From positions 88,568-152,567 of the forward strand of contig CAVQNT010000003.1 of NCBI GenBank assembly GCA_963714275.1: DNA of 64,000 bases. The letters run 5' to 3'. The notes below the pieces were generated by a model. It did no database searches, was not told where the DNA came from, and saw only the letters and a list, made by a program, of their open reading frames with translations. Source of the DNA: Candidatus Bathyarchaeota archaeon. Its GTDB lineage: Archaea > Thermoproteota > Bathyarchaeia > Bathyarchaeales > DTEX01. The translations under genes were made by a program, and so were the position numbers. Shown piece after piece: positions 6,194 to 63,422 of this stretch; the first letter of the stretch is position 1; each line of letters opens with the position of its first letter.

Positions 6194-7259
6194 TTGGTGA
6201 ACATAACTATGAAAACTCCTTTTCAAAGTGAGATTGATGAACAAGGAGAAGCCTTACGAAGAATGATTACATTCTACGGGCAAGAAGGCACCAGACTGCT
6301 AAAGAAATGGAAGAAACTGTTAAGTAAAATGGATGGTAACTTACTTTTCGCTGGCATGGGGACATCATTTTTTTCGCCTTTTGTGATCAAACCGTTGCTC
6401 GCATCGAAAGGTATTATGGCTTCTATTTATGAGGCTGGTGAGCTTCTCCATTATGAACTGAAAGCTGTTCACAAAAATGACTTAATTGTGCTGATTTCAC
6501 AATCAGGAGAAAGCATTGAAACATGTAAGGTGGCAGAACAACTGAATAACACCTGCCCAATAGTAGCGATTGTAAATAATGAGAATAGTACATTAGCCAG
6601 ACATGGAGATCTAGTGCTACCCTTGGTGGCTGGAGAAGAGAAGAGCATTACAACAAAAACTTACACCAACACCCTTGGACTCCTAAATATGATGGGAGTG
6701 ACTGCTGTTTCTGGTGACCTAGAAAAGGAACTGAACTCCTTAACAGAGGCTTCATTTCACATGGACAGACTTTCTTGAAAGTCGAGCTGAAGAAGTAACG
6801 CTTGCAGCAAAGAGACTTGAAAATGCTAATGTTATCCATTTTCTTTCGCGAGGTCCATCTATGGCTGGGGCTTTTCAAGGAGCTTTGACATTCATGGAGG
6901 GAGCTCGTATGACAGCTTTAGCTATGCCCTGTGGCAGTTTTCGTCATGGCCCCTTTGAACTTGTTCGTGAAGGGCACCACGCAATTGTTTATGTTCCATC
7001 TTCCCAGAATGGAAGGCTAATCATAAAAATGGTTTCTGAGATGGCTGATAAAGGCAGTCGTATAGTGGCTTTTTCTGCTAACACTAAAAGGATAAAAAGG
7101 ACTGAAGTTTTTGAGATAACTTTCCAAAACATTGATGATAGACACCTTTCTATTGCCGCAGCCACTCCGCAAGAGCTCCTATTGGATAAGATTGCCTCTC
7201 TTCGGGGCTTAACCTGTGGAGTGTTTGAGCACGGATCAAAAATAACAATGGTGGAATGA
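6194..7259 (+). CDS. Double-SIS-domain sugar-phosphate isomerase/deaminase (GlmS isomerase-domain-like, AgaS/GlmD type), one frameshift near 6765
   Basis: The first SIS domain carries LISQSGESIET. The second reads on in another frame (TDFLESRAEEVTLAAKRLENANVIHFLSRGPSMAGAFQGALTFMEGARM...). There is no glutaminase domain. An ATG at 6209 is the likely start. Confidence 0.7.
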
Positions 7260-9250: not shown

Positions 9251-9500
9251 ATTTTTATTTGTGTTTTTTTTTAGAGAGAGAGTGTATGTATATGTGAGTG
9301 AATGAGAGAAGGAAAGCAAGAGCGTATAAGTGAATTTGTGTGTGGGTGGGGATTAAAATTTAATCTTTCTCTCTCTCTCTCGTCCTGTTACGTTCTATTC
9401 TCTACTGTTCTGTTCTGTTATATGTGCTCTCTACACTCTACTCTACACTACTCTACTCTCACAACAAACAACAAACACAAATATAAAAATACAAAAAGGC
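9251..9500 (+). repeat. Composite low-complexity element, copy A (full length): GT/GA-rich left arm, AT palindromic core, CT/CA-rich right arm
   Basis: The core gattaaaatttaatc lies at 9351-9365. The left arm is almost free of C and the right arm almost free of G. See findings. The track ORF 9302-9511 is a translation artefact of this element. Confidence 0.8.
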
Positions 9501-9535
9501 AAGAAAACTAATTATTTATCGCAGTTCTCCTTATT

Positions 9536-10700
9536 ATGAATGAGATGATGCCATTGGGCTATGATATACACAACATACTCTTCTTTTTTGGTGCTGGAGC
9601 GTCGGCGCCATTCGGAATCCCAACCATGAAGCAATTTGTGGACGATTTTGAACGGTTTCTGTCTGACAATAGTTCACGCGAAGAAATATCTTTCTATAAG
9701 AAAGTGAAAGATACTTTGAACAGTCAACTTAATAGAGATATAGACTTAGAGGACGTTTTTACAGTTATTGACGGATATATCAATTTTAACTTTGAAAAAC
9801 TAGGCGTATTGGCATTATACATTTTTTCTGAGCTTTCAAAACCAAGATCAAAATCTCCAGATTATATAGAGAAAGATTCTAAAATCTGCGAAAGTCTTAG
9901 AGATAAATATCGAAAATTCGTCAAGGATAAGTGTCTAATACCTGACCAATCCTTTGGAAAAATATCAAATGTTTACAAAGATTTTTTTAATAGATTATTT
10001 TTGGAATCTACATCCCCCCGATCTTATGTCGATTACCAGAAAGGAGGTTATTGTTACAGTACGAATTGGACGATTTTCACAACAAATTATGATACATGCC
10101 TTGAGTATTACTTTCGTGAAGTAGCAGGAGTCTCATGTTAACACAGGATTCGTCCCCGATGTGGCATCCCAAAAATATGTAATGGATGCACTGACGCTGT
10201 TCAACGAACCTGCTGCAATAATAAGGCTCATCAAACTTCACGGTTCTGTAAACTGGCTTATTGATTCTGAAGGAACAGTATCAGAGGAGTCAGTTTTAGG
10301 TCAATCATTTTTCGGAAGGAAAATCGTAGGCGAGATGATGATATATCCAGTTCAGCAGAAGGACCTCTATCTAGAACCTTATATTTCCATGTACAAACTG
10401 TTGAACAATAAACTTTCGGAAAAATTAATTTGGATCATTATCGGTTACTCATTCAATGACCCTATCATCCGTGAGATTTTCGTGAGGAACTCGCGTGCAG
10501 ATAAAATTATGGTTTTCGTTCATCCTGACGCTCTAAGAATTGCTGTGGAAAGACTGAAGGGTCTCAAAAATGATGTACGACTATTGAATGAGTGGTTTGG
10601 GCAAGATGGGCATTACAGGAAGGTCAATTATGACATAATAAGTAAACTTATCTCGAATCCGCGATTCGACGCGGAAGAAACACCTGTTTCTCAAAAATAA
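9536..10700 (+). CDS. SIR2_2-family (ThsA-type SIR2 fold) protein, one frameshift between 10119 and 10137
   Basis: Motif blocks FFFGAGASAPFGIPT, TTNYDTCLE, IKLHGSVNW and IIGYSFNDP. The second piece (10161-10700) continues in another frame as ...HVNTGFVPDVASQKYVMDAL... Confidence 0.75.
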
Positions 10701-10839
10701 ATATTCCATTTGCGTGTGTATTAAAATTAGTGAGCTAGCCCAAACCAAAAAGTAGAATCCTATCGCCTTGATTAATAGCGAGATTTTTTCTTATCTAGAA
10801 ATTCATCCTTAAGTCGCTGAACATATACATCATCACTAG

Positions 10840-11676
10840 TCAATAGCTTTCCTTCGGGGATAGCCCTTTTACTATGAAAGATGCTATTTCATGCCGTACA
10901 AGATAGCTTCGGACATTGTTTTTTCCTTTGCATTGTTCATGCATCAAAAAATTGTTTAGTGCTATGTTCGAAATCCTCCTCAACCAACTATGACTTGGAA
11001 ATATCGATATTTGATCGTTAGATATGAAAGCCATTGACATCTTATCTGCAACTTGGCTAAGAGTAGGCAAAGTTCTAGCACCGTGAACATAATCGTTACG
11101 ATAATTATAGTCTTGCTTCAACAACCTTTCAAATAACAAATTGGTGTTCCCACGCTTTCCAAGGAATTCAATCTCACGGATCTCGTATTGTGTGAATCTA
11201 TCAGTTGTAACGTAATTCATAACAAATCTTTTTAGATTTCTCCATTTTCCATTTCTGTAGAGAATATTTGAAATGCTTTCTAAAGAGAAAACGAGCAGGA
11301 CAAACGCAATTGAGTAGTTGTTTTCCTTTGTGATCAAAGACTCGTTAAATGTCTTAGAGCTATCAATGAAAGCATTGAAGAATGAGGAGTCAATGCAGAG
11401 AAGCTTGTTAAATTTTGATTCTACGGCAACTATGTCTCTAAATGCACCATTTTCAATAGAAGCATTGAAAACTATATTAGTTCCATTTATTTTTCTACTA
11501 AGAATCCTCACTGCTTTGTTTGAAAGAAGAGAAACAATATCGGCATATGTTTTAGCTTCAAATTCTTCATTTTCCAGAATAACATATTTAGCAAAGGCTT
11601 TGCTAATTCGAAATTCCGCAGATGATTCACTCTCAGAAGAAAACTTGCATTCTTCCAATTGGATAGAAATTGGCAT
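10840..11676 (-). CDS. Hypothetical protein with an Rx4H HEPN-type motif
   Basis: A 278-aa ORF with ATG start. YNYRNDYVHG sits in the C-terminal third, in a context that reads as helical to me. It is convergent with the SIR2-like gene across a 139-bp spacer. Confidence 0.5.
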   Translation of the reverse strand: MPISIQLEECKFSSESESSAEFRISKAFAKYVILENEEFEAKTYADIVSLLSNKAVRILSRKINGTNIVFNASIENGAFRDIVAVESKFNKLLCIDSSFFNAFIDSSKTFNESLITKENNYSIAFVLLVFSLESISNILYRNGKWRNLKRFVMNYVTTDRFTQYEIREIEFLGKRGNTNLLFERLLKQDYNYRNDYVHGARTLPTLSQVADKMSMAFISNDQISIFPSHSWLRRISNIALNNFLMHEQCKGKNNVRSYLVRHEIASFIVKGLSPKESY

Positions 11677-11773
11677 GATCGTAAATTATATTGACCTATT
11701 ATTTATAGCATGGGAGATTGCTTAAGTCATAAATCAGCAATTCTTGGAATCCATGTTTCACGTTCGCCTCTAA

Positions 11774-11797
11774 GGTAGGTAGGGTAGGTAGGTAGGT
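11774..11797. repeat. (GGTA)n microsatellite-like tract
   Basis: ggtaggtagggtaggtaggtaggt, in the intergenic space between the HEPN-motif gene and the PRC-barrel gene. Confidence 0.8.
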
Positions 11798-12059
11798 TGT
11801 CGTGGGCATCTCAGTACTTTCGCTTGCACTCTAAAACAGAAATCACCGCCATAACTTCACTAAATAGTTCTCTTTTTTTCCTTCAAATAGTGTTAACTAA
11901 GGGAGCGACAGCGAAGTGCACAGACAAAATAACATTTTATTTGGTAACTAACTAGGTAAACATCATTATTCTCTTAAGACGAGATATAATGATAAAGCTA
12001 AACTAACCCTGCGGATAATTTATAAACACTAATAAATATTTTTTATATGGGTATGTTTT

Positions 12060-12408: not shown

Positions 12409-12480
12409 TGTGTGTGTTTTTGTTTGTTTGTTTGCGTAGAACGTCTGACAGACAGACGGTAGGCGTACGTGTGTGCGTAG
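12409..12480 (-). repeat. Low-complexity element, copy B (right-arm type, reverse orientation)
   Basis: The reverse complement reads ...ctgtctgtcagacgttctacgcaaacaaacaaacaaaaacacacac. This resembles the CT-rich to CA-rich tail of copies A, D and F. Confidence 0.55.
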
Positions 12481-12827: not shown

Positions 12828-14181
12828 TTAATTGTGAAAAAATTTCTCTGCTAGCTTTATACCTATTGCCAAAGCTGATGTCAAGATAGACGTAAGGACC
12901 AACATGCCAGAAGAAGCCATCATTAATTGAGAGGCATTCGTAAATTCACTTAAACCCATCAATACTAAACTTACAAGTAAAGGAATTATTAGAACTACAT
13001 ATGTACATCTTTTTACGTTTCCCAGAATACGGACATGCTTATCTAGTAAAGCAATGAGAAACATCATCGGAAGAGAAAAATAAAAGGCTCCTATGAGGAA
13101 GCTTGTAGTTAAAATTGCCATGACCACGCTAAACTCCGAGCTGAATGTAAGAAAGTTTTGTACTGAAAATGATATACGCATAATACCCATCAAAGGGTAA
13201 AGAAAGCCTTTCACAGCCAACTTTGCTGCTTGGTCTTTCGCAATATAATGTGCTACGCTAGGACTGAATGAATAATACCAAACGTTAAATATTTCTGTAA
13301 ATTGACTGCCAACAAATGTTGATTTAACTTGATTGTCTCTGAATTCTCTTATGAATTGCACTTCTCCTTGTAGCTCTGATTTGATGGTAGCCATGGAAAC
13401 TAAACAATCTATTAATTCTGAACCGTTTTCCTGCACCTCTAACAAATACAATCCCGTTTCTAAGCTTACTAACCATAAAATCGACATACTTATAATCGTC
13501 CGGAGTCCATCCCAAAGGATTTCTGTCTCCCGTAGCCTCCACCCAGATCCATCCTGCACCTCTACCATCATCTATGTCCCAGTAAACGTTAGCATTGGGG
13601 TATTCAGGGAGATATATTAAAAGGGCAGCGTGATCAATCGCATCAACAATCGTCACATCGTAGCCTGCAGCAGAATACATCGCCGTGAGAATGAATGCAA
13701 AATCTTCACAGTCCCCATAAGCAACCTCCTGGTTGTTATAAGCCAGATCGATCATATGAGCCATTTCGTCAGGATTCCAGGCCCATTCTTCTTCTATCTC
13801 ATTATTAGTAACTGCGAGAACATAGGGGTTTTCTTCATCATATTTGTATTTTACCATAGATTGTACGAACTTCATTATTTTCTCTGCCCTGGTAACTTGA
13901 TCAGGATATTCAGTTAGAAACCATCTGCCGTACTGATAAGCAAGCTCTCTGTTTTGTCCTAGACTCTCAAAGACTACAGCAGGTAAGTAACCATCATCCC
14001 CTGTTGCAGAGTTTCTGTTAATATCCCAGCTATCGTACCAATAATATCCTTTTTTAGTAAAGCCTTCACTTTGATCAGCAATCGTACTTTGCACAGGATA
14101 CAAGAGTATAAGAATCGAACTAATCAAAAGTGGCAAAGACTTACTTTTCAATTCTCTATTTTCCTCATAGTGGTATAGCAA
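12828..14181 (-). CDS. Transglutaminase-like cysteine-protease-fold protein with signal peptide and C-terminal multi-TM domain, one frameshift near 13455
   Basis: The N-terminal piece (13324-14181) has a signal anchor plus GDCEDFAFILTAMYSAAGYDV...DHAALLIY (Cys and His of the transglutaminase core). The C-terminal piece (12828-13571 frame) has FIREFRDNQVKSTFVGSQFTEIFNVWYYSFSPSVAHYI followed by several TM helices. Confidence 0.65.
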
Positions 14182-15428: not shown

Positions 15429-17112
15429 ATGACGCAGTCATCAACAACCAAGCCTTCATTTCTTTCAGTGCAACCTGTCTCAAGGAAGGTTGGGCTTTAT
15501 GAAAAATTCGAGCTTCGAATCGACTTGAACGCAACATATGCCAATCCTTTCAATCCTGAAGAGATTGACTTACAAGCTGAGTTCACATCCCCCACTGGCA
15601 AAGAATGGAAGATATGGGGCTTCTATAACCATTCAAGCTGGTCTCATCTTTGGATGGTTCGTTTCGCGCCGACGGAGAAAGGGGTCTGGAAATATATCGT
15701 GAAAGTAAAAGACATAGAGGGCACAGCTCAAAGCCAAGCTGACACCTTCGAGGTGATTGACTCGTTGCATCATGGTTTCATCAGGATCTCGCCGAATAAG
15801 CGCTATCTGATGTATGATGATGGCACATCCTTCTATGGTGTTGGACTATGGTACAACGATGGTTATGACCTGTTCAACGAGGGACACATTACAGCAGATG
15901 GACTTGATGAGCTTAAACGTCGAGGTGCTAATTTCATCAGCTTCTTTCACACGCCTCTTGAGACTATGGGCACCGGTTTGGGTCGTTATGACCAGAATCG
16001 GTGTGGTCGACTTGACCAACTCTTTGAATGGTGTGAGAAGCGTAATATCCACATATCCTGGAACATGTGGTTTCACTCGCATCTTTCCCAGGCTGTTTGG
16101 GGTCCTGGTGGAGCACTATACAGACACAATCCCTTTCATCTTGTAGCTGATGCTGTTGACTTCTTCGGTAGTAAAGAAGCCTGGAAGTTTCAAGAAAAAA
16201 TCTGCCGTTACATAATCGCTCGTTGGGGGTATAGCCATGCATTGTTCCTATGGTTCATCATCGATGAAATTAATGGCACCGAAGGATGGCAGGATGGCGA
16301 TAAAGATGTCGCCGAAAAGTGGTGTAGAAAGATGGACGCCTTTTTCAATGAGCATGATCCCTACGGACGCCCTACCACAGGCACCCAAAGTGGGGGCATC
16401 GACGAATGGTGGCCAGGTGGATACAAAATCTTCGATATTGCAGCTCGCGAAATATATGAAGCGCAGGGACATCCTATGCCAAAGACAGGTAAAATCGACT
16501 GTGCCATTGAAAGCCCACTGCAATATAGCCTATCGCAACTACTCTACCCAGATCCATAATCTGTGGAAAGGCTTCAACAAACCCGCCATTATCGGTGAGT
16601 GTGGCTGGGACCATACATATTATGAACCGGGAACGCCAGGATATCTGGCAATGTATCACAATGCCTTATGGGTCAGCCTGACAAATGGTTTATGCTGTAC
16701 ACCATTCTGGTGGGCTTACTCAGATTGGATCAACGATAGTGTTGTTACCAATCAAATGCACCACTTAGCAAACTTCGTTTCAGACATCGATTTCGCTCAC
16801 CATAACCTTAAACCCGCTGAGATCAAGGCAGGTGACTGCGATGCATGGTGTATGAAGAACGACAAAATTATCTTCGGCTGGGTTGTTAATCCGCGTACCA
16901 GTGTTGCCAAAGAATCCTTCACGATCTCGGGGTTAAAAGATGGGAACTATGAAGTACATATCTATCACACATGGCGAGGTCAATACTTGAATGCGAACAC
17001 ACTTCAGTGTCAAGATGGAAAGCTCACCATCATGATTCCAGAATTACAGAGAAGCCAGGACCACGCTTCACACATCGGAAATGACATCGCTTTCAAAATC
17101 GTTAGAAAATAA
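15429..17112 (+). CDS. Glycoside hydrolase, DUF5060-type N-terminal beta-sandwich plus clan GH-A (GH5-like) barrel, one frameshift near 16510-16535
   Basis: N-terminus FELRIDLNATYANPFNPEEIDLQAEFTSPTGKEWKIWGFY. The barrel has WFIIDEINGTEG (acid/base region) and, in the second frame, KPAIIGECGW (nucleophile region). The pieces are 15429-16559 and 16237-17112. Confidence 0.65.
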
Positions 17113-17403: not shown

Positions 17404-17934
17404 GCTCTTTTCACTCCTATGCATTTTGTCTGCAAGAATAAAGTCTAGTTCTAGAAGCTTTGCTTCCTGCGCAATCTCAGAGAGACGTTTCCCTCTCTAT
17501 TAAACTTATCCATGACGAAGTTAGAAAACTTAATATGGTTAGCTGAAAACTTACGAATTGTGGATACAATGGCAAGGAATTTTAGCTGAAGCTATCTAGC
17601 CATGCCAGCCAAACAGCACTTAAGACCGTTTTAAGCCTAATTCGCTTTCGCAGGCTAAGCTGACTTTTCTCCTTACTAGATCTAGAGTAAATTCTCTTAT
17701 TCTTTAGACTCTTCGTTAACCAACTTTTCTGCTTCCATCTTTTAAGAGCCCTTTCCTTTCTTTTTCTTTCCTTTGCTACTTTCTTCATTTTTCTTTTCTC
17801 TTTTGTTTTTTTATATTTCTTAGTGGTTCTCGCTTGATTAAAATTTGTTCTCTTCCATCTATCCTAACAAACCTACTTAACTCTTTAGCATCCAAGATCA
17901 TCATGAGAAGGAAAAATGTGGGATGCAATCTTCT

Positions 17935-20914: not shown

Positions 20915-21020
20915 ACAAAATTTAATTTTTTTCTCTGTTTATTCTTCTCACGTGTGTTGTGTGTTGTGCGTTATCTGTTATACGCTCTCTAGCCACGATA
21001 TAGAACAACAAAACAACCAT
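20915..21020 (+). repeat. Low-complexity element, copy D (core-like aaaatttaat plus right arm)
   Basis: acaaaatttaatttttttctctgtttattcttctcacgtgtgttgtgtgttgtgcgttatctgttatacgctctctagccacgatatagaacaacaaaacaacc. Compare copy A: ctgttatatgtgctctctac...cacaacaaacaacaaacac. Confidence 0.6.
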
Positions 21021-21140
21021 TCTAAAATTTATTACTTGCCATTCTTTTTCTTTTTATTTTCAAGCATCTTTTAATACGGTTAAAAAAAATTATAAGGTTC
21101 AACATGCACTAGACCAAACTCTAGACATATCTGGAGTGTT

Positions 21141-23669: not shown

Positions 23670-24915
23670 TTGAATAGACCTGATGTTTACTACATTGAGG
23701 CACATGTACCAATTGAATATATTCCACAGGTCCCCTCCAAAAAATGGTACACATACAGCCTGATATATCAAACAAAAGAGCTTGCAGGAAAAATTTTGTT
23801 AGATACTATTAAACCGGGAGACACTGTTGCCATTAAAACACATTTTGGTGAACGATACTCTCAATATTACATTAGACCAGCCTATGTAAGGAAGGTAGCT
23901 GATAAAATTAGGGAATTAGGTGGAAAACCCTTCGTGTGTGACACGCTTTTTTCTGGTATGGCTGTAGAGAGAGATGAAGCAGACGAACCCTTCCTGACCA
24001 GGAGATCTCTTGAAGAGGGTCTAGAAACTGCAGCTATGAATGGTTTCACCCGTGAAACTATGGGGTGTCCAGTCTTCTTTGCAGATGCTCCAAAGGGATT
24101 AAGATCAATAAAACATCCCTTTAATGGGACATACATCAAAGAGGTTTTTATCGCTTCAGTTATCGCTGAGGCTGATGTCCTATTGAGCCTGGCGCATTTT
24201 AAGGCTCATGACTGTATGTCAGTGGGCGGAACTCTCAAGAATATCGGTGTGGGTTGCTCAGCTAAACAGGGAAAATGGTGGATTCACCACAGTTCTAAGC
24301 TTAAGTGTGGACTTGAAAAAATGCACAGAATGCGGCGAATGCGTATCTTATTGCCCAGTGGACGCAATAGAGATGGTTCAGGGAAAAGCCCATATTATTC
24401 CAGAGAAATGTATCGACTGCGCTGGCTGCATCGACCATTGTAAATCTGCTGCATTTATTAGTAGGACATTTCCAACCATAGAGGAACAAGAGGCTAGAAT
24501 CGCTGAAACTGCTACTGGCATCATTCAGTATTTTAAAGGTAAAGTAGCATTCATCAACTTAGCTGTTGACATTGTGCCCCTTTGCGACTGCGATCCCTTC
24601 CAAGGAGTTCCAATAGTTCCAGACCTAGGCGTACTAGCATCAAAAGACCCAGTGGCTATCGATAGGGCATGCATAGACCTTGTAAACAACTCCTCAGGCA
24701 TCCCTAACTCAATGGCTGAGGCTGCAGGTGTGCTGAAGCCTGGAGTAGAAAAACTTAACACCATCGCTAAAATGAGGTGGAAGGCTACGCCTGGAGCAAC
24801 TCATGTGACACCGGACTGGAGGGTCATGCTTGATACAGCTGAGAAGGTTGGACTTGGAACTCAACATTACAATTTAATTAAAATAAATTTTGGCTATCCT
24901 CCAAAGAAATCATGA
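23670..24915 (+). CDS. DUF362-domain protein with an inserted 2x[4Fe-4S] ferredoxin domain, one frameshift near 24265-24290
   Basis: VAIKTHFGE...KPFVCDT...LAHFKAHDCMSVGGTLKNIGVGC, then in a second frame CTECGECVSYCP and CIDCAGCIDHC, then VPLCDCDPFQGVPIVPDLGVLASKDPVAIDRACIDLVN. Confidence 0.7.
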
Positions 24916-28258: not shown

Positions 28259-28392
28259 GGGATTAAAAATTAGTCTTTTTCTTCTTCTTACTTACTCTTA
28301 CTTACATACTCTTCCGCTTCTGTTTACTCGGTATATCGTGTGTATCGTATATCACACAAAAAAACAAACACAAACAACCAAAAACAAAAAGC
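28259..28392 (+). repeat. Low-complexity element, copy F (core plus right arm)
   Basis: gggattaaaaattagtctttttcttcttcttacttactcttacttacatactcttccgcttctgtttactcggtatatcgtgtgtatcgtatatcacacaaaaaaacaaacacaaacaaccaaaaacaaaaag. Confidence 0.7.
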
Positions 28393-47314: not shown

Positions 47315-48652
47315 TTAGGTATGAACTTTTTCAACCTCTCCTTGAAGCACCTTTAAAGCTAAATTGAACGTTTTTTTGGCTAAGTTTGAGATTTGGCTGT
47401 TGTTGTAGCCGACAACGTAGCTTTCCACCCGGTTGTTTAGTGGATCAATCCATTTTTCTGGCAATTTTTTCGCTCCTAACATGACACCGAGGATTGACCC
47501 TGTGGTTGCGCCGTTGCAATCTGTGTCCCATCCGCCCATGACGCTGATGGCTATGCTTTTTTCGTAGTCTCCTTTCCCGTGCAGCAGCCCCAAGAGGACA
47601 AGTGCAGCGTTGTTTATCGTGTGAACTCCGTGGTAGTGACCGTATTTTGCGTTGATTTGTTGCCAAGTGTCTCTCCAGTCATTATTTTTTTTGCTCCAAG
47701 CAACCACGTTCTTCATGGCTTCAGCGAGTCTAGATTTCATTGGTATTTCTGAAAGCCCAATGTCGATTACTTCTTCGATGCTACTGGTTGTGAACGCTGC
47801 GCTGATCATGGCGCTCACGAACATTTCGCCGTAAATCCCGTTTTTCACGTGAGACAAGCTGGCGTCTCTGTATGCAAGTTCAGCTCCCAGTTCAGGCATT
47901 CCGGGCGTCACGTAACCAAACATGTCTGCTCGAATTTGAGCACCAATCCATTCGCGGTACGGGTTCACGTAAGAGGCTGTTTCTGGCGGAACAAACCCGT
48001 TAACGAGGTTTCTGTAGGCTACTCGCTCAGCAGTGTAGACTTTATTGTATGGGAGGTTTTCAAGCCAGTTGTTTCCCACATCCATTGCTGAAAAGTTGAA
48101 TCCTTTGGTTTCGAGAAGGTGAAGGTTAATTATCGGATAATCTATGTCGTCGTCACGCGACATGTGGGTAATGTGCCCCGACAATACTTCCATCCATGAA
48201 GCTCGACGTTTCAGCCAGTCTGGAACAGCCTTAGTTTCTGGTAGATGCGGAAAATAGTCGTTAAGCGGATATGCGTCTGCAAGTTTCAGCCACTCCTCAA
48301 TCTTTTCTTTATGTAAACCTTCAACTGGTTTCCCGAGAAGACAACCAGCGCATCGCCCCAACCACCCACCGTAAATCTTGTCAAAAATCTGTTCTTCAGA
48401 AAGTTTGAGGCCTATTTTTCTTGGACCTTTCGGGCGTTCATCTCTTATTCCTTCAAGGTCTGAGGGTTCAGCGTAAGGAAAATCGGTTCTTGGGGAGAGT
48501 TTAGAGACATTTTTTAATACAGCTTCGAGTTTGGATTGATTTTTTCCTGTAATGTTTTCTAACACTTTTCTGGCTTCTGCGACGTCGCAGCCTTCTTCTT
48601 CTCTCTGGGTGATCTCTTCTTTAACTAGTCCTTCGAGTTCTTCGTACCTCAT
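47315..48652 (-). CDS. ADP-ribosylglycohydrolase-family protein
   Basis: GGWLGRCAGCLLGKPVEG...SVMGGWDTDCNGATTGSILG, 445 aa, with an N-terminal extension of about 90 aa. Confidence 0.8.
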   Translation of the reverse strand: MRYEELEGLVKEEITQREEEGCDVAEARKVLENITGKNQSKLEAVLKNVSKLSPRTDFPYAEPSDLEGIRDERPKGPRKIGLKLSEEQIFDKIYGGWLGRCAGCLLGKPVEGLHKEKIEEWLKLADAYPLNDYFPHLPETKAVPDWLKRRASWMEVLSGHITHMSRDDDIDYPIINLHLLETKGFNFSAMDVGNNWLENLPYNKVYTAERVAYRNLVNGFVPPETASYVNPYREWIGAQIRADMFGYVTPGMPELGAELAYRDASLSHVKNGIYGEMFVSAMISAAFTTSSIEEVIDIGLSEIPMKSRLAEAMKNVVAWSKKNNDWRDTWQQINAKYGHYHGVHTINNAALVLLGLLHGKGDYEKSIAISVMGGWDTDCNGATTGSILGVMLGAKKLPEKWIDPLNNRVESYVVGYNNSQISNLAKKTFNLALKVLQGEVEKVHT

Positions 48653-58914: not shown

Positions 58915-61900
58915 ATGGTGATGCTGTTATTATGCACGATTGGGGTGACGGTGCCTCTAAGCTTCGGTTCAACAAGTGCAGTCTCCAATTTCTCAAACAA
59001 ATTCTAATTTGGATTTTTTTCTCGATGAAAACGTTTACAGTAACGTTCTAGACAGGATAACTTTTCTTTCAAACTTAGGCTCAAGAGTGACGGGGTATGA
59101 AGGAAACTATAGGGCTGCCCAATACATAATCGACGAATTTTCTAAACTTGGGCTTAACGTGCAAGTCCAGAAATTCAATGTAACAGTGCCCATAGACCTA
59201 GGTTCAGACATAACAATCCTTACACCAATCACGGCAACCATAAATGCTTACGCTGTTTGGCCAAACGGCGTTCAACCTTCCCCTGCAAAAGATTTGGAAG
59301 GTCCATTGGTGTACGTGAAGGGTGATTCGTTAGGAAATTTCGACGGAAAAAATATAACGGATTCCATTGTTCTCATGGAGTTTAACTCCAGCTCCAATTG
59401 GCTTTACGGTGTAGATTTGGGTGCCAAAGCCGTAATATTCATTGAACCTTCCGATTCGTCAAGCAGCGAAAGTCTACAAAAATTCGTTGAAGCCCCCGTC
59501 TACTTCCCGAAGTTGTTTGTGAAACATGATGATGGACAAAGGCTTAAAAATTTGGTTCAAAGTTCCCAATCCGAAGTTCGAGTAAAAATAAACCTCAGGA
59601 TGGAATGGAGAACCGTTGAAACACAAAACATCATAGCCATGCTTAAGGGTACGGGAAATCCTGGAGATGTCATAGTTCTTACGTCACATTATGACTCGTG
59701 GTCGGTTGTTCCCGCCATTTCCTACGGCGCTTCTGACGCCACGGGCGTTTCATGGCTTATAGAATTGGCTAGGTATTTTTCGGTTAATAAGCCTGTCAGA
59801 TCCGTTTGGTTTGTAGCCTTCTCTGCTCATTGGCAGGCTATGGCTGGGGAAAGAGAGTTCGTCGATGAAATGTTCTTTAGCAGTCAGGTTCAAAGTGGAG
59901 CGGTCAAACCTTGGGTCTTCATAGGTTTAGGACCTTTCTCCGGAGACTCTTTCAATATCCAGCTATTGGACACAAGCTTTTACGCAGGAGCCTGTTCATC
60001 TGAGCTGATTACCTCCGACCGATTTACATGGATACAAAGACGCATAACCCAATCTTACCTTCTAAACAACGAATTAAGACTGACAATTGAGGAGCTCACT
60101 GGGAGAAATCTTGACCCTACGCTTTTAGTTGAAGAAAGGCTGTCTACAACCTCTATGTGGTGGGGAACAATCCAACAGCCAATCATGCTTGAAAGCGAAA
60201 TTCCCCTTACAGCTGGCTGTATATCCTTTAACATTCTCAGTTCTCCTGTTTACACATACTCCAAGTACATAGGGTCGCCCGTTAACGACTTGGAACTCGT
60301 TAACCTAGAAAATATAAAACCTCAGTTTCTTGTTTCAGGCTTCATTGTTTCATCCATACTTAACGATAATGAATGGTCCCTTAGTTGGGCCAGCGTTAAA
60401 CCTGTCAGAAGCGTGTACGTGGGAAGCAGCATAATTGCTTCACAAAACGCGGGGTTCATCACGTTGAATGGTAAAGTCCTGTTTTTTAACAATAGTTTAG
60501 GTTGGTATGAACCTATTTCCCACGCACTAGTTCAAGTGCAAATGACGACCATGAATAATCCCTTAGCAAAGATAATTACGATGGCTGATGAAAATGGAAG
60601 CTTCCAAATTAGGGGCATAACACCCTACACTCTCACTTATAACAAGGGCGGATGGGAAACCAAAGCTTGGATTATCGATAAAGAAACCGGGAATATACTA
60701 TATGCTCCAGACCTCGGAGTTCAAGGCGGCAGAGTTTTTACAAGCACAATCTTTCCTATGAGTCATCCTGCGCAAGTGTCTGCTGTGGTTGCAGAACTCC
60801 GAGCTATAACAGTTTTTAACCTGCTGGACCCAAGATACGACAGACCACTGATGGTTTTGGACCAAAGGTTTTCCTCGCTTGTCTCAAGCGACATATTTGT
60901 ATCAGTCAGCGGGTTCATACGCCCCATCGAATTTTCGTCTAAAAGCGATTTTCTCACTTATGGCGCTTATTATAATCCTTGGGAAACTGTGGGAATAGTT
61001 TTTGTCCCGCCGTCCTCAAAAAGTGCTATTTTATTGAAAATGGGAGGCACAGGAGCATCTTCGTTAAGCTGGCCCATGTTTCTTACTAATTCGACTGATG
61101 AAGAACCTGAAGGGGCAGGAGTTACAATGTCTAACGACTCAATCACGATTCCCTTCTCAATTTACGCTTTTGCCTCTGACATGTTCAGAGCAACAAAATC
61201 CAGATACGAAAAGTTAACGGCATACAATGTGAGAAGCCTCAGCATAGAAAAAGCGCTTGATGAATCCCAAAAGAACTTAGCATTGGCTGAAAGCTTGTTT
61301 AACAGTAAAAACTACAGCGAAGCTTATAGTTACGCTACTTTGTCCTATTCTTGGTCAACCCGAGCTTACAATGAAGTTATGGCTATAATTAACGAAGCAG
61401 GCACAAGCATAACGACACTTTTTATCCTTGCCATAATAGTTTCCTTCGTAGTGGAGCGAATATTGGTTCAAGCCACGAAAGGTCTTGTAAGGTTACTTTT
61501 CATAGTAGGATTCACGGTACTCTCCATTATCACGATGAGCCTCATACATCCAGCTTACACGGTCATGAGCAACGCGATCATAGCGAATATTGGTTCAGTT
61601 CTGATGATAATGTTCGTTATAAGTCTGGGAATACTGGCCATTGAAGCGGAAAAAATGTCAAAAGCCCTTTCTGTACGGTATCTTGGTACGCACAGTATTG
61701 AGAAGGCTCGATTGGGCGTCGTAGCCCTAGCTTCCTCGATATCTGTTAACTTCATAAGAAAACATCGTCTCCGGGCTGTGCTAACGTTCCTAACAGTTTT
61801 CATAGTCAGTACAGCCATCACGTCAATTACTTCCATGGCACCATTCATAGGTGTCAAGATTTCGCCAAAGTCACTGGGAACATTGGATTTACTTTATCCG

Positions 61901-63422
61901 ACGCAGTTGTTCTTAAAGAATGGTCAAGGTTTGCCTCAAAATGACATTTTCTCAGCACAAGTCGTTGAAGTCCTTAATCAGGTTTTGAAGGACAAATTCG
62001 TAATATTGCCTAGGGTCGTTTACTATCCTCAAACAATATTCAGATACGGCGTTTATCAGGGAATATCGTCTCAAACTCAGACAAGTTACTTAAGGGCTAT
62101 TCTGGGAGTGTCACCTGCAGAATCTGTCTTCCAGCAAAACTTGACATCTGGAAGATTCTTTTTAGAAGACGATTTTCAAACATGCATACTGTCCTCGGCG
62201 CAGGCTGAGGCGTTAAATGTAAAGGTAGACGACAAGATTAGCACCGGCGAGCTACGAACTAGTTGTCGTAGGAATCTTTAATGAAAGTACCTTCAGACAA
62301 TTAAAAGAACCGAACGGTATTCAGTTTGGAGTTCCAGACCCCTCCTATAATTCCTACATTGCTAAAGACATGGCTCAGCCTTTGAATCCTGGAGTTACTA
62401 TTCCTCTACTTTCATGGGAATTTGTCTTGGTGGTTCCACAAAGATTTGCTCTTAGCCTCGGAGGGTTTGTCCAATCAATAGTCGCTGTACCCGTGTCGTC
62501 CGAGGTTTCAAGCAGTGAAATTCGAATAATCGCGAGTAATTTAGCTTTAACTCTGGATTTGAACATCTCGTTCGTTATTAACGGCTTAATTTCATCAGCT
62601 TCAAGATTACCTTCGTACGTTACTTTCGGGTTCGAGTCCCTAATGGTTCTTGTTGTCATCGCAGCTCTAAACATTGCTGTAACAATACTTTCGAGCATAA
62701 GAGAAAGAAACAGAGAGATTCAAGTTTTCGCAGTGACAGGATTGACGCCTCTGGGCTCCATGTCCATGTTTATTTTGGAATCGGAGATTTACGCCATCAT
62801 CGGAGGGTTCCTAGGATACTTCGCCGGTTTTGGACTTAATACTGCCTTCCGCAATTTTGGATTGTTGCCCTCGGAGATACCCTTCAATCACATTTCTTCA
62901 ACCACAATGCTCACAATTGTCATAATTTTGGTGGTCAGCTTTGTCACGTCTTTGTGGCCATCTTTTTCAGCAGGCAAATCCGTTACACCTTCACTTCTTA
63001 GAAAATGGGAGTTCACCACCGAGCCAGGACAAGATGATTGGGAAATACCAATACCTTCAAGAGCCTCATCCAAAGAGGAAGCGATAAGCATTCTTAGATT
63101 CCTGAAAGAATTTTTTGACGGTGCCGGCAACGTGGGACACATGTTCATGATTACTGAAACAAAGAACGTGATGGCAGAAGACGCCACGATAAGGTTTGTG
63201 ATTAGGCAAGCTCCCTACGAACTGTTGATTCTTTCAGACGTGGAAATTCGATTCGTAGCGGACACTGAGGGATACTCAACACAAGTGTATCTGAAAAGAA
63301 CATCGGGAGATAGAAAAGCGTGGATCGTCTCAAGCTACTATTTCGTGGACTCCCTGAGGAAGCAATTATTGCTTTGGAGAAGCCTTGCGGTTGCTGATCG
63401 TAGGAAGTTTTTGAATGACTAA
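58915..63422 (+). CDS. Giant fusion protein: signal peptide, M28/PA-like (probably non-catalytic) ectodomain, extra TM helices, FtsX/MacB-type permease module, C-terminal soluble domain; two frameshifts (within 58976-59005 and near 62250)
   Basis: The signal MVMLLLCTIGVTVPLSFGSTSAVS lies in a frame that overlaps the start of the 58976 ORF. M28-like blocks are TSHYDSW and GASDATGVSWLIELAR. FtsX-type TM1 is RLRAVLTFLTVFIVSTAITS. The MacB-PCD-like region has ...LSSAQAEALNVKVDDKIS and, after the shift, YELVVVGIFNES. The FtsX core is SSIRERNREIQVFAVTGLTP followed by 3 TM helices. Confidence 0.6.

What the first reader, a model, noticed from the sequence alone, without database searches (positions are those of the whole stretch)
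9536..11676. Convergent SIR2_2-like gene and HEPN-motif gene: a candidate two-gene defence module in a repeat-flanked, AT-rich pocket
The ORF at 9536-10700 carries four blocks I associate with the ThsA-type SIR2 (SIR2_2) fold. They are FFFGAGASAPFGIPT, TTNYDTCLE (catalytic Asn block), IKLHGSVNW (catalytic His block) and IIGYSFNDP. Tail-to-tail with it, 139 bp away, is a 278-aa ORF (10840-11676, minus strand). Its only recognisable feature is YNYRNDYVHG, a perfect Rx4H HEPN signature with the usual polar residue after the Arg. SIR2 NADases (Thoeris ThsA, DSR1/2, SIR2-HerA, SPARSA) and HEPN RNases (Abi systems, toxin-antitoxin, CRISPR ancillary nucleases) are both established abortive-infection effectors. 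I know of no described system made only of a stand-alone SIR2_2 protein of about 390 aa plus a HEPN protein of about 280 aa. The neighbouring genes (an esterase and a PRC-barrel gene) have no obvious functional link. The pair is bracketed by unusual low-complexity elements at 9251-9500 and at 11774-11797 and 12409-12480. Caveats: the genes are convergent, so they are not one transcript. The SIR2-like gene is frameshifted between 10119 and 10137 as assembled. The HEPN call rests on a single short motif.
Basis: partly seen in the sequence, partly recalled or inferred. Interest (0 to 1): 0.72.

Follow-up and report, generated by a model that had tools for sequence, protein, structure and literature searches.

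The report
Two unlinked defence-like genes, adjacent
An archaeal chromosome carries a stand-alone SIR2-type (NAD-degrading) gene next to a gene of an undescribed family that bears the catalytic hallmark of HEPN RNases, but the two never occur together elsewhere and the 'frameshift' is a sequencing artefact, so this is two independent, probably defensive, genes rather than a new two-gene system.

Summary
Both ORFs and all quoted motifs are real. The SIR2 call holds: once repaired, the 387-aa product scores 46.7 bits on Pfam SIR2_2 (cut-off 24.5), and it has 394 database relatives; the 120 best listed are almost all full-length, about 350-390 aa. The frameshift is an assembly artefact. Five frameshifts in the window sit at AGCT sites. 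Restoring AGCT rebuilds a 1519-aa and a 290-aa orthologue-matched ORF, the SIR2 ORF, and the missing C-terminus of the second gene, which is really 301 aa (10771-11676). That second protein belongs to a rare, unannotated family: 66 clusters among 1.84 billion representatives. R193 and H198 are the only invariant columns. A confident AlphaFold model puts them at the end of a long helix, with a conserved Glu in the preceding hairpin, which is HEPN topology. No HEPN profile or Foldseek match is significant, so HEPN is probable, not proven. The pairing fails its own test. Eight other contexts of the HEPN-like family lack SIR2, and four contexts of the SIR2 clade lack the HEPN-like gene. Each gene sits alone near integrases, prophage genes or toxin-antitoxin modules. 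Verdict: two independent single-gene defence candidates that happen to be adjacent. Modest interest.

The parts
9536..10700 (+). Stand-alone SIR2_2 (SIRim-type) gene. It gives one 387-aa ORF once the spurious T at about 10131 is removed. Catalytic Asn184 is at 10085-10087, Asp186 at 10091-10093 and His235 at 10239-10241.
10127..10137 (+). Artefactual frameshift site. GGAGTCTCATG is read for GGAGCTCATG (AGCT to AGTCT).
   Evidence: The same lesion type is validated against orthologues at about 8080, 58981 and 62249.
10771..11676 (-). Gene of an unannotated family of about 300 aa: an N-terminal alpha/beta domain (residues 1-95) plus a helical HEPN-like domain. It is 301 aa after repair; as assembled the ORF is 10840-11676 (278 aa).
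10864..10880 (-). Artefactual frameshift site in the HEPN-like gene. The plus strand reads TTTTACTATG for TTTTAGCTATG. Repair restores the conserved tail FIAKRAIPEGKLLTSDDVYVQRLKDEF...
11083..11100 (-). Codons of R193-N-D-Y-V-H198, the invariant Rx4H motif. They lie at the C-terminal end of predicted helix 176-199.
11278..11280 (-). Codon of E133, at least 90% conserved, in predicted helix 121-139. It is the candidate HEPN helix-2 acidic residue.
9251..9500 (.). Low-complexity, microsatellite-like spacer upstream of the SIR2 gene. It is not specific to this locus.
11773..11797 (.). (AGGT)n tract upstream of the HEPN-like gene.

Best explanation
Two unrelated single-gene loci sit tail to tail in a small AT-rich pocket of an archaeal chromosome. 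They lie between a sugar/peptide-uptake cluster and a PRC-barrel gene. Both are of the kind found in defence islands and on mobile elements.

Gene 1 encodes a stand-alone SIR2_2/SIRim protein of 387 aa with an intact NAD pocket (GAGxS loop, catalytic Asn and His). By inference it depletes NAD+ once activated, probably through self-assembly, since it has no fused sensor and no conserved partner.

Gene 2 encodes a 301-aa member of an undescribed family. It has a small N-terminal alpha/beta domain, inferred to act as sensor or regulator, fused to a helical domain with HEPN topology. An invariant Rx4H motif plus a conserved Glu would form a metal-independent RNase site, by inference across a dimer. 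The protein would act as a single-gene abortive-infection or toxin effector, in the manner of ApeA.

Both genes are intact in the organism. The apparent frameshifts are systematic sequencing and assembly errors at AGCT sites. The two genes are neighbours by island clustering, not a co-evolving module.

Shown: identities, motif conservation, predicted fold topology, absence of co-localisation, and the artefact. Inferred: NADase and RNase activities, a defence role, and activation mechanisms.
For: SIR2 gene:
- Pfam SIR2_2 scores 46.7 bits against a cut-off of 24.5.
- PADLOC Aga_SIR2 scores 82.9 bits, and SIR2 model PDLC04084 scores 80.6 bits over residues 10-353.
- There are 394 relatives, and the repaired product aligns colinearly with full-length ones of about 375-385 aa, with the catalytic blocks invariant.
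- The closest solved structures are 8w9l and 8j4u, deposited only as 'SIR2-like domain-containing protein', E about 3e-7. From memory, these are SIR2 subunits of SIR2-HerA systems.
- Homologues sit beside MNT-HepT and ParE modules, an integrase and a D5 primase, or in blocks of small unknown ORFs, with no shared neighbour.

HEPN-like gene:
- There are 12 close and 66 remote cluster representatives.
- R193 and H198 are the only invariant columns among 53 sequences; E133 is at least 90% conserved.
- The AlphaFold2 model has pLDDT 93.5 and pTM 0.91. It shows helices 97-116 and 121-139 (carrying E133), an insert, and helix 176-199 ending in Rx4H followed by a loop. This matches the published HEPN description: motif at the end of helix 3, acidic residue in helix 2, insert between helices 2 and 3 (PMC3710099).
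- Weak hits are confined to single family members but fall on four different HEPN models: HEPN_Apea 0.0049, Csx1/Csm6 5e-4, Cas13d 0.02, and RiboL-PSP-HEPN 0.15. The last spans the RNSFVH motif.
- Relatives lie next to integrases (L005, L015, L022), at the edge of a terminase/ParB-methylase block (L019/20), or next to a kinase-STAND protein (L001).

No module: only L013 (the same locus as the window) holds both families.

Artefact: restoring AGCT at three sites gives a 1519-aa ORF with 1415/1519 residues identical to P0234, and a 290-aa ROK ORF matching P0209. The same repair fixes both target genes.
Against: - No HEPN profile (Pfam, PADLOC, NCBIfam) reaches significance for the window protein or for family consensus sequences.
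- Foldseek against the PDB and BFVD gives nothing below E = 0.02, with TM at most 0.26.
- hhalign against single HepT and HEPN sequences is null.
- The residue after Arg is Cys or Ser in many relatives, not the typical N/D/H. The acidic motif is Ex3N/S, not Ex3[KR].
- The defence role of this stand-alone archaeal SIR2 clade is inferred from homology and context only.
- The sample of contexts is small: 8 and 4.
- No mobile-element gene flanks the pair in the window itself.
- L013 shares the SIR2 frameshift. The artefact reading for that one site therefore rests on the AGCT pattern, not on independent reads.
Confidence: 0.65

Rival explanations
1. This is a genuine two-gene defence system. The SIR2 NADase and the HEPN RNase would work together, for example with one sensing and the other executing, or as dual effectors.
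For: - The genes are adjacent in the window and in L013.
- Both are AT-rich relative to the window.
- Two of four SIR2-clade contexts also have a different HEPN-superfamily gene nearby: PF05168 in L006 and MNT-HepT in L007.
Against: - The genes are convergent, so they do not form one transcript.
- None of 8 other HEPN-like contexts has any SIR2 gene, and none of 4 SIR2 contexts has the HEPN-like family.
- L013 is the same locus, not an independent occurrence.
- HEPN-MNT modules are very abundant in archaea (established knowledge), so proximity is expected by chance.
Confidence: 0.06
2. Both genes are decaying pseudogenes. The frameshifts would be real, and the pocket would be a graveyard of formerly mobile cargo.
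For: - Both genes are frame-disrupted as assembled.
- The SIR2 frameshift is also present in the Logan contig L013.
Against: - All five frameshifts examined lie at AGCT. These include three in genes with orthologues about 93-94% identical, and restoring AGCT repairs each one exactly.
- L013 differs from the window only at three AGCT sites, and in garbled ways, so it suffers the same error mode.
- Apart from the single indel, neither gene has a stop codon or has lost a conserved residue.
Confidence: 0.08
3. The 301-aa protein is not an RNase. The invariant Arg/His/Glu would serve another chemistry or a binding role, and the family would be mobile-element cargo of unrelated function. The SIR2 protein might also have a housekeeping or regulatory NAD-dependent role rather than a defensive one.
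For: - No HEPN profile or fold match is significant.
- The A1 profile weakly hits an HD-domain protein, 2cqz, at E = 0.026.
- Many archaeal SIRim proteins are not in known systems (10.1101/2024.09.18.613514).
Against: - The motif spacing, its position at the end of a helix, the upstream conserved Glu and the all-alpha domain all fit HEPN.
- The 2cqz alignment does not pair R/H with the HD residues, and the family has no HD doublet.
- The only recurring theme among the weak hits is HEPN, with four different models.
- The patchy distribution and mobile-element contexts argue against a housekeeping role.
Confidence: 0.2

Closest known systems
SIR2 subunit of SIR2-HerA (Nezha) systems; chains 8j4u and 8w9l
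   Same: These are the best solved-structure matches to the SIR2 family profile, E about 3e-7. The chains are of similar size (381-415 aa), are SIR2_2-type and have no fused sensor domain. The assignment of these entries to SIR2-HerA is from memory; the depositors' name is only 'SIR2-like domain-containing protein'.
   Different: No HerA or other ATPase gene is adjacent in the window or in four homologue contexts. Similarity is limited to the core, about 140-210 residues.
Argonaute-associated SIR2 effectors (PADLOC Aga_SIR2; SPARSA and long-B pAgo systems)
   Same: This is the top PADLOC model: 82.9 bits, E = 5e-24.
   Different: There is no APAZ domain and no pAgo gene nearby. The hit covers only the C-terminal half of the protein as its best stretch.
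ThsA (Thoeris) and vertebrate FAM118B / SIRim sirtuins
   Same: It belongs to the same SIR2_2/SIRim subfamily and has the catalytic Asn/His and no CxxC zinc module. FAM118B is likewise a stand-alone SIR2_2 protein of about 350 aa that becomes active by filament formation (PMC12700824).
   Different: It has no SLOG or Macro domain and no TIR partner. The ThsA model hit is only E = 1.6e-4 over about 40 residues. It is not in the vertebrate FAM118 clade.
ApeA (single-gene HEPN anti-phage tRNase; Pfam HEPN_Apea)
   Same: Both are single-gene and have non-HEPN N-terminal domains fused to a diverged HEPN with an insertion between H3 and H4 and the active site on H3 (10.64898/2026.01.26.701840). One family member weakly hits HEPN_Apea at E = 0.0049.
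   Different: ApeA is about 580 aa with N, Mid and HEPN domains of about 250 aa. This family is about 300 aa with a beta3-alpha-beta2 N-domain of about 95 aa. No match is above threshold, and no Foldseek hit was found.
HepT/HEPN-MNT toxin-antitoxin modules
   Same: They share the Rx4H catalytic motif at the end of a helix, metal-independent RNase chemistry is inferred for both, and both are abundant in archaeal variable regions.
   Different: There is no MNT partner, the protein is twice the size and has an extra N-terminal domain, and hhalign against a HepT sequence is null.

Membership tests
SIR2_2 / SIRim sirtuin subfamily | Match to Pfam PF13289 above the gathering score | tested here: met
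   The repaired 387-aa protein scores 46.7 bits against a cut-off of 24.5, E = 4.5e-12. As assembled, the C-terminal fragment scores 25.1 bits.
SIR2_2 / SIRim sirtuin subfamily | NAD-pocket residues: the GAGxS loop, the catalytic Asn (TTNYD) and the catalytic His (KLHGS) | tested here: met
   All are invariant in the 11-sequence alignment: G19-S23, N184/D186, H235.
SIR2_2 / SIRim sirtuin subfamily | No zinc-binding CxxC module, unlike canonical sirtuins | tested here: met
The criterion is from PMC12700824.
SIR2_2 / SIRim sirtuin subfamily | NAD+ hydrolysis | not testable with these tools
   This needs a biochemical assay.
Thoeris (ThsA + ThsB) | SLOG or Macro sensor domain on ThsA and a TIR-domain ThsB gene alongside | tested here: not met
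   The protein is 387 aa with the SIR2 domain only. The neighbours are an esterase, the HEPN-like gene and a PRC-barrel gene.
SIR2-HerA | Adjacent HerA-type ATPase/helicase gene | tested here: not met
   None is present in the window neighbourhood or in homologue loci L006, L007, L009 and L012.
SPARSA / pAgo-associated SIR2 | APAZ domain and an adjacent Argonaute gene | tested here: not met
   There is no extra domain and no pAgo among the neighbours.
DSR1/DSR2 | Single protein of about 1000 aa or more, with a large C-terminal sensor region | tested here: not met
   The protein is 387 aa. The Dsr1 model hit is only E = 0.022 on the N-terminal fragment.
HEPN superfamily | Conserved Rx4-6H motif | tested here: met
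   R193 and H198 are the only invariant columns in 53 sequences of 15-50% identity.
HEPN superfamily | Polar residue (N/D/H) directly after the Arg | tested here: inconclusive
   It is Asn in the window protein, but mostly Cys in close relatives and Ser or Cys in remote ones.
HEPN superfamily | Motif at the end of core helix 3 running into the loop; acidic residue in helix 2; insert between helices 2 and 3 | tested here: met
   The AlphaFold2 model (pLDDT 93.5) has H121-139 carrying E133, an insert at 144-175, and H176-199 ending in R193..H198. The criteria are from PMC3710099. Three-dimensional proximity could not be measured because no coordinates were available.
HEPN superfamily | Significant profile or structural match to a known HEPN family | tested here: not met
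   Only sub-threshold hits on single members: HEPN_Apea 0.0049, Csx1/Csm6 5e-4, Cas13d 0.02, RiboL-PSP 0.15. Foldseek against the PDB and BFVD finds nothing. PDB sequence profiles find nothing.
HEPN superfamily | Metal-independent RNase activity | not testable with these tools
   This needs a biochemical assay.
ApeA | HEPN_Apea (PF18739) match above threshold, and an N-Mid-HEPN architecture of about 580 aa | tested here: not met
   One of 53 members hits at E = 0.0049, below the cut-off. The family is about 300 aa.
Two-gene defence system (SIR2 + HEPN) | Conserved co-localisation of the two families in other genomes | tested here: not met
   tblastn of all family members against 23 loci finds both families only in L013, which is the same locus.
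Two-gene defence system (SIR2 + HEPN) | Co-directional, operon-like arrangement | tested here: not met
   The genes are convergent, with their stop codons 70 bp apart after repair.

The most novel reading that the evidence does not exclude
Stand-alone archaeal SIR2_2 genes may be functionally coupled to HEPN-superfamily RNases of interchangeable families. Three of five SIR2-clade contexts have some HEPN-type gene within two genes: the Rx4H family here, PF05168 in L006 and MNT-HepT in L007. That would make a modular 'SIR2 plus any HEPN' defence architecture. Separately, the Rx4H family of about 300 aa would be a new single-gene abortive-infection RNase with a novel sensor domain.
Probability: 0.08. 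Interest if true: 0.6.

Novelty: new member of a known kind. Interest (0 to 1): 0.3.

Why it matters
The proposed novelty, a SIR2 plus HEPN two-gene system, does not survive testing, so the main value is negative. Three smaller points remain.

1. A rare family of about 300 aa has no model in Pfam, NCBIfam, PHROGs or PADLOC. It has an invariant Rx4H/Glu triad, a confident predicted structure and mobile-element contexts in both archaea and bacteria. It is a reasonable candidate for a new single-gene HEPN-type effector, and defence in these archaea is poorly charted.

2. The stand-alone SIR2_2 clade of about 380 aa is widespread in these archaea and has no partner gene. That raises the question of how an unaccompanied SIRim NADase is triggered; filament-activated FAM118B is a comparison.

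3. The AGCT-linked indels show that gene calls in this assembly, and probably in its sister long-read MAGs, are systematically broken at one motif. This affects any pseudogene or 'split gene' inference drawn from them.

Tried and rejected
- **HD-domain reading of the 278-aa protein.** The A1 profile hits 2cqz at E = 0.026. Rejected: the alignment does not pair the conserved R/H with the HD residues, and the hit vanishes with the deeper profile.
- **N-terminal domain as a Hjc-like nuclease.** 1ob8 scores E = 0.41. Not significant, and there is no catalytic signature.
- **Foldseek of the confident model** against the PDB and BFVD. Only kinase and topoisomerase noise, TM at most 0.26.
- **hhalign of the family** against single HepT and HEPN sequences from L007 and L006. 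Null, but with little power.
- **Consensus sequences of the family against Pfam**. No HEPN hit.
- **NCBIfam and PHROGs scans of all 53 members**. Noise only.
- **tblastn of a remote member against plasmids and phages, and IMG/VR scans for both families**. Nothing found.
- **Conserved partner next to the HEPN-like gene.** The upstream genes in L022, L023 and L005 are unrelated.
- **Conserved partner next to SIR2 homologues.** An all-against-all BLAST of neighbours gave no hits.
- **Flanking direct repeats as att sites.** The only candidate is a 31-nt low-complexity pair at 77% identity, 9242 and 12395. Not convincing.
- **L013 as an independent check of the frameshift.** Rejected: it differs from the window only at AGCT sites, so it shares the error mode.
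- **RNA genes.** Rfam and tRNA scans of the window are empty.
- **First AlphaFold run with 12 sequences.** The C-terminal domain was unusable, pLDDT 55.8.
Full report
**1. What is in the sequence**

The ORF list confirms a 201-aa ORF (9536-10141, +) and a 179-aa ORF (10161-10700, +) in different frames, and a convergent 278-aa ORF (10840-11676, -). The flanking genes are a ROK sugar kinase and an alpha/beta-hydrolase esterase upstream, and a PRC-barrel gene downstream. Further out lie oligopeptide ABC ATPases, a GH5-like hydrolase and a SIS-domain gene. The window also holds aRF1 and a class-I aminoacyl-tRNA synthetase. It is therefore a piece of archaeal chromosome, from a 286-kb contig held by NCBI and ENA. 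No tRNA or Rfam family is present.

**2. The SIR2 gene**

The two fragments each hit SIR2 models in PADLOC, and the C-terminal one hits Pfam SIR2_2. A fused translation finds 394 relatives. The 120 best listed are almost all about 350-390 aa and all carry PF13289. The fused product aligns colinearly with full-length relatives, with no gap at the junction. The GAGxS loop, TTNYD and KLHGS blocks are invariant.

After repair (section 3) the 387-aa protein scores 46.7 bits on PF13289 against a cut-off of 24.5. It scores 82.9 bits on PADLOC Aga_SIR2 and 80.6 bits on SIR2 model PDLC04084, the latter over nearly its whole length.

The nearest solved structures are 8w9l and 8j4u, E about 3e-7. They are deposited only as 'SIR2-like domain-containing protein'; from memory they are SIR2 subunits of SIR2-HerA systems. 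The protein belongs to the SIR2_2/SIRim subfamily, which includes ThsA, DSR1/2 and vertebrate FAM118B (PMC12700824; 10.1101/2024.09.18.613514). It lacks every partner or extra domain that defines Thoeris, SIR2-HerA, SPARSA or DSR.

**3. The frameshift is an artefact**

A Logan contig (L013) covers window 9353-11997 at 99.7% identity and shares the SIR2 frameshift. However, it differs from the window only at three places (10730, 10872, 10906), each at an AGCT site.

Cluster look-ups showed that other window genes are also broken. Cluster members of the 1101-aa ORF at 58976-62281 are 1519 aa, and those of the ROK gene are 289 aa. tblastn showed the large gene split over three frames and the ROK C-terminus out of frame.

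In each case the break lies at a corrupted AGCT: AGCT read as AGTCT at about 58981, a G inserted before AGCT at about 62249, and AGCT read as AGT at about 8080. Restoring AGCT yields an ORF of exactly 1519 aa, with 1415 of 1519 residues identical to P0234. It also yields a 290-aa ROK protein whose tail matches P0209.

The SIR2 break is the same lesion: GGAGTCTCATG for GGAGCTCATG. Repair gives ...FREVAGAHVNTGF..., the same length as the homologues.

The 278-aa ORF is affected too. Its conserved C-terminal tail sits in another frame. Restoring AGCT at about 10872 gives a 301-aa protein ending FIAKRAIPEGKLLTSDDVYVQRLKDEFLDKKKSRY, which matches the family consensus FKAKRAIQKGQxLxExxVYLQQLxDDF.

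AGCT occupies only a small fraction of positions: 274 sites in 64 kb. Five of five breaks at AGCT is therefore not chance. My inference, from general knowledge of nanopore assemblies, is a modification-dependent basecalling error at methylated AGCT. I could not inspect reads.

**4. The second protein**

It has no hit in Pfam, PADLOC, NCBIfam or PHROGs. It has 12 close relatives of about 300 aa. A profile search of 1.84 billion representatives finds only 66, at E up to 0.001.

In a 53-sequence alignment spanning 15-50% identity, R193 and H198 are the only invariant columns. E133 is conserved in at least 90% of sequences.

With this alignment AlphaFold2 gives a confident model: pLDDT 93.5 and pTM 0.91. 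The 12-sequence run had failed for the C-terminal domain. The model has:
- a beta3-alpha-beta2 N-terminal domain (residues 1-95);
- helices 97-116 and 121-139, the second carrying E133;
- an insert at 144-175;
- helix 176-199, ending in R193..H198 and followed by a loop;
- a short helix and a beta-hairpin;
- helix 229-246.

This is the HEPN arrangement described by Anantharaman et al.: Rx4-6H at the end of helix 3, an acidic residue in helix 2, and an insert between helices 2 and 3 (PMC3710099). The insertion between H3 and H4 recalls the ApeA HEPN.

Formal support is weak. Only single members touch HEPN models: HEPN_Apea 0.0049, Csx1/Csm6 5e-4, Cas13d 0.02, and RiboL-PSP 0.15 across the motif. 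Foldseek against the PDB and BFVD finds nothing, as do PDB profile searches. I rate an HEPN-type RNase as probable, about 0.6-0.7, not established.

**5. Are the two genes a module?**

No. The contexts are as follows.

| Family | Locus | Neighbourhood |
|---|---|---|
| HEPN-like, close | L001 | next to a kinase-AAA-TPR protein |
| HEPN-like, close | L004 | small unknown ORFs |
| HEPN-like, close | L005, L015 | next to an integrase |
| HEPN-like, close | L017 | between an Lhr-like helicase and a permease |
| HEPN-like, remote | L019-21 | end of a terminase/ParB-methylase block |
| HEPN-like, remote | L022 | integrase element |
| HEPN-like, remote | L023 | no annotated neighbours |
| SIR2 clade | L006 | block of small unknown ORFs |
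| SIR2 clade | L007 | beside MNT-HepT and ParE |
| SIR2 clade | L009-11 | near a conserved fibrillarin/Nop5 region |
| SIR2 clade | L012 | integrase and D5 primase |

A tblastn of every member of both families against all 23 loci finds both families only in L013, which is the window's own locus. Neither family has any conserved neighbour. The genes are convergent, with 70 bp between their stop codons after repair.

**6. Surroundings**

The low-complexity tracts are real, but similar ones occur at four other intergenic places in the window. The only flanking direct repeat is a weak, low-complexity pair. The two genes are moderately AT-rich, at 37% and 34% against 42% for the window. That fits acquired DNA, but no integrase or tRNA marks the pocket.

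**7. Conclusion**

These are two independent single-gene candidates of the defence or abortive-infection type. One is a partner-less SIRim NADase. The other is a member of an unannotated HEPN-like family. They lie side by side in a small variable pocket, and both are probably intact. The proposed two-gene system is not supported. The novelty lies only in the unannotated Rx4H family and in the open question of how stand-alone archaeal SIR2_2 proteins are triggered.

Noticed in passing
window about 8080, 58981, 62249, 10131 and 10872; L013 at positions matching window 10730, 10872 and 10906: Every frameshift examined lies at an AGCT site (AGCT read as AGTCT or AGT, or with a G inserted before it). 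Restoring AGCT repairs a 1519-aa gene, a ROK kinase gene and both target genes. This looks like a systematic, probably methylation-linked, basecalling and assembly error that will break many gene calls in this MAG.
   Followed up: yes
window 12828-14181 (-), 15429-17112 (+), 23670-24915 (+), 6194-7259 (+): Four further pairs of ORFs on the same strand, three overlapping and one (6194-7259) only abutting, look like split genes. Each interval that is open in both frames contains AGCT or AGNCT strings. No orthologues were available to confirm the repair.
   Followed up: partly
window, whole: GGCC is strongly under-represented: 46 observed against 154 expected from a Markov model. GATC and CCGG are at about 0.6 of expectation. 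This suggests restriction-avoidance pressure. AGCT itself is not depleted.
   Followed up: no
L006 7826-8251 and L007 5173-5915: Two of four SIR2-clade contexts carry a different HEPN-superfamily gene within two genes of the SIR2 gene: PF05168 HEPN in L006, and an MNT-HepT pair directly upstream in L007. This is probably the general abundance of HEPN-MNT modules in archaeal variable regions, but the recurrence was not tested statistically.
   Followed up: partly
L001 9090-12746: A homologue of the HEPN-like gene is followed, on the same strand, by a 1218-aa Pkinase-AAA_16-TPR (STAND-like) protein. This may be another defence-type gene in a variable region beside the dihydroorotate dehydrogenase genes.
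   Followed up: no
L001 76-4359 versus L009 9430-13158: The same conserved block (NTPase_1, RNase HII, PDDEXK_19-HTH, fibrillarin, Nop5) lies near a HEPN-like homologue in one archaeal contig and near a SIR2 homologue in another, on opposite sides. Both flanks of this core region seem to be variable insertion zones.
   Followed up: no
L019/L020 5641-7939: A remote member of the Rx4H family is the last gene of a prophage-like block (ParB-N6/N4 methylase, terminase). It lies immediately downstream of a 438-aa metallo-beta-lactamase/RMMBL (beta-CASP-like) gene.
   Followed up: no
window 17750-17774, 20952-21060, 28283-28390: Microsatellite-like low-complexity tracts (CCTTT, GTGTGTT, TTCTTT and A/C-rich repeats) recur in other intergenic regions. 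They appear to be a trait of this genome, and their function is unknown.
   Followed up: partly
window 11700-11707 and 9512-9519: TATA-like boxes lie upstream of both genes. TATAAATA on the minus strand is 24-31 nt upstream of the HEPN-like ATG, and TTATTTAT is 17-24 nt upstream of the SIR2 ATG. This suggests separate archaeal promoters with short or absent leaders. It was read by eye only.
   Followed up: no
window 47315-48652 (-): A 445-aa ADP-ribosylglycohydrolase family protein (PF03747, E = 4e-52) lies in the housekeeping part of the window. It is unrelated to the finding by position.
   Followed up: no
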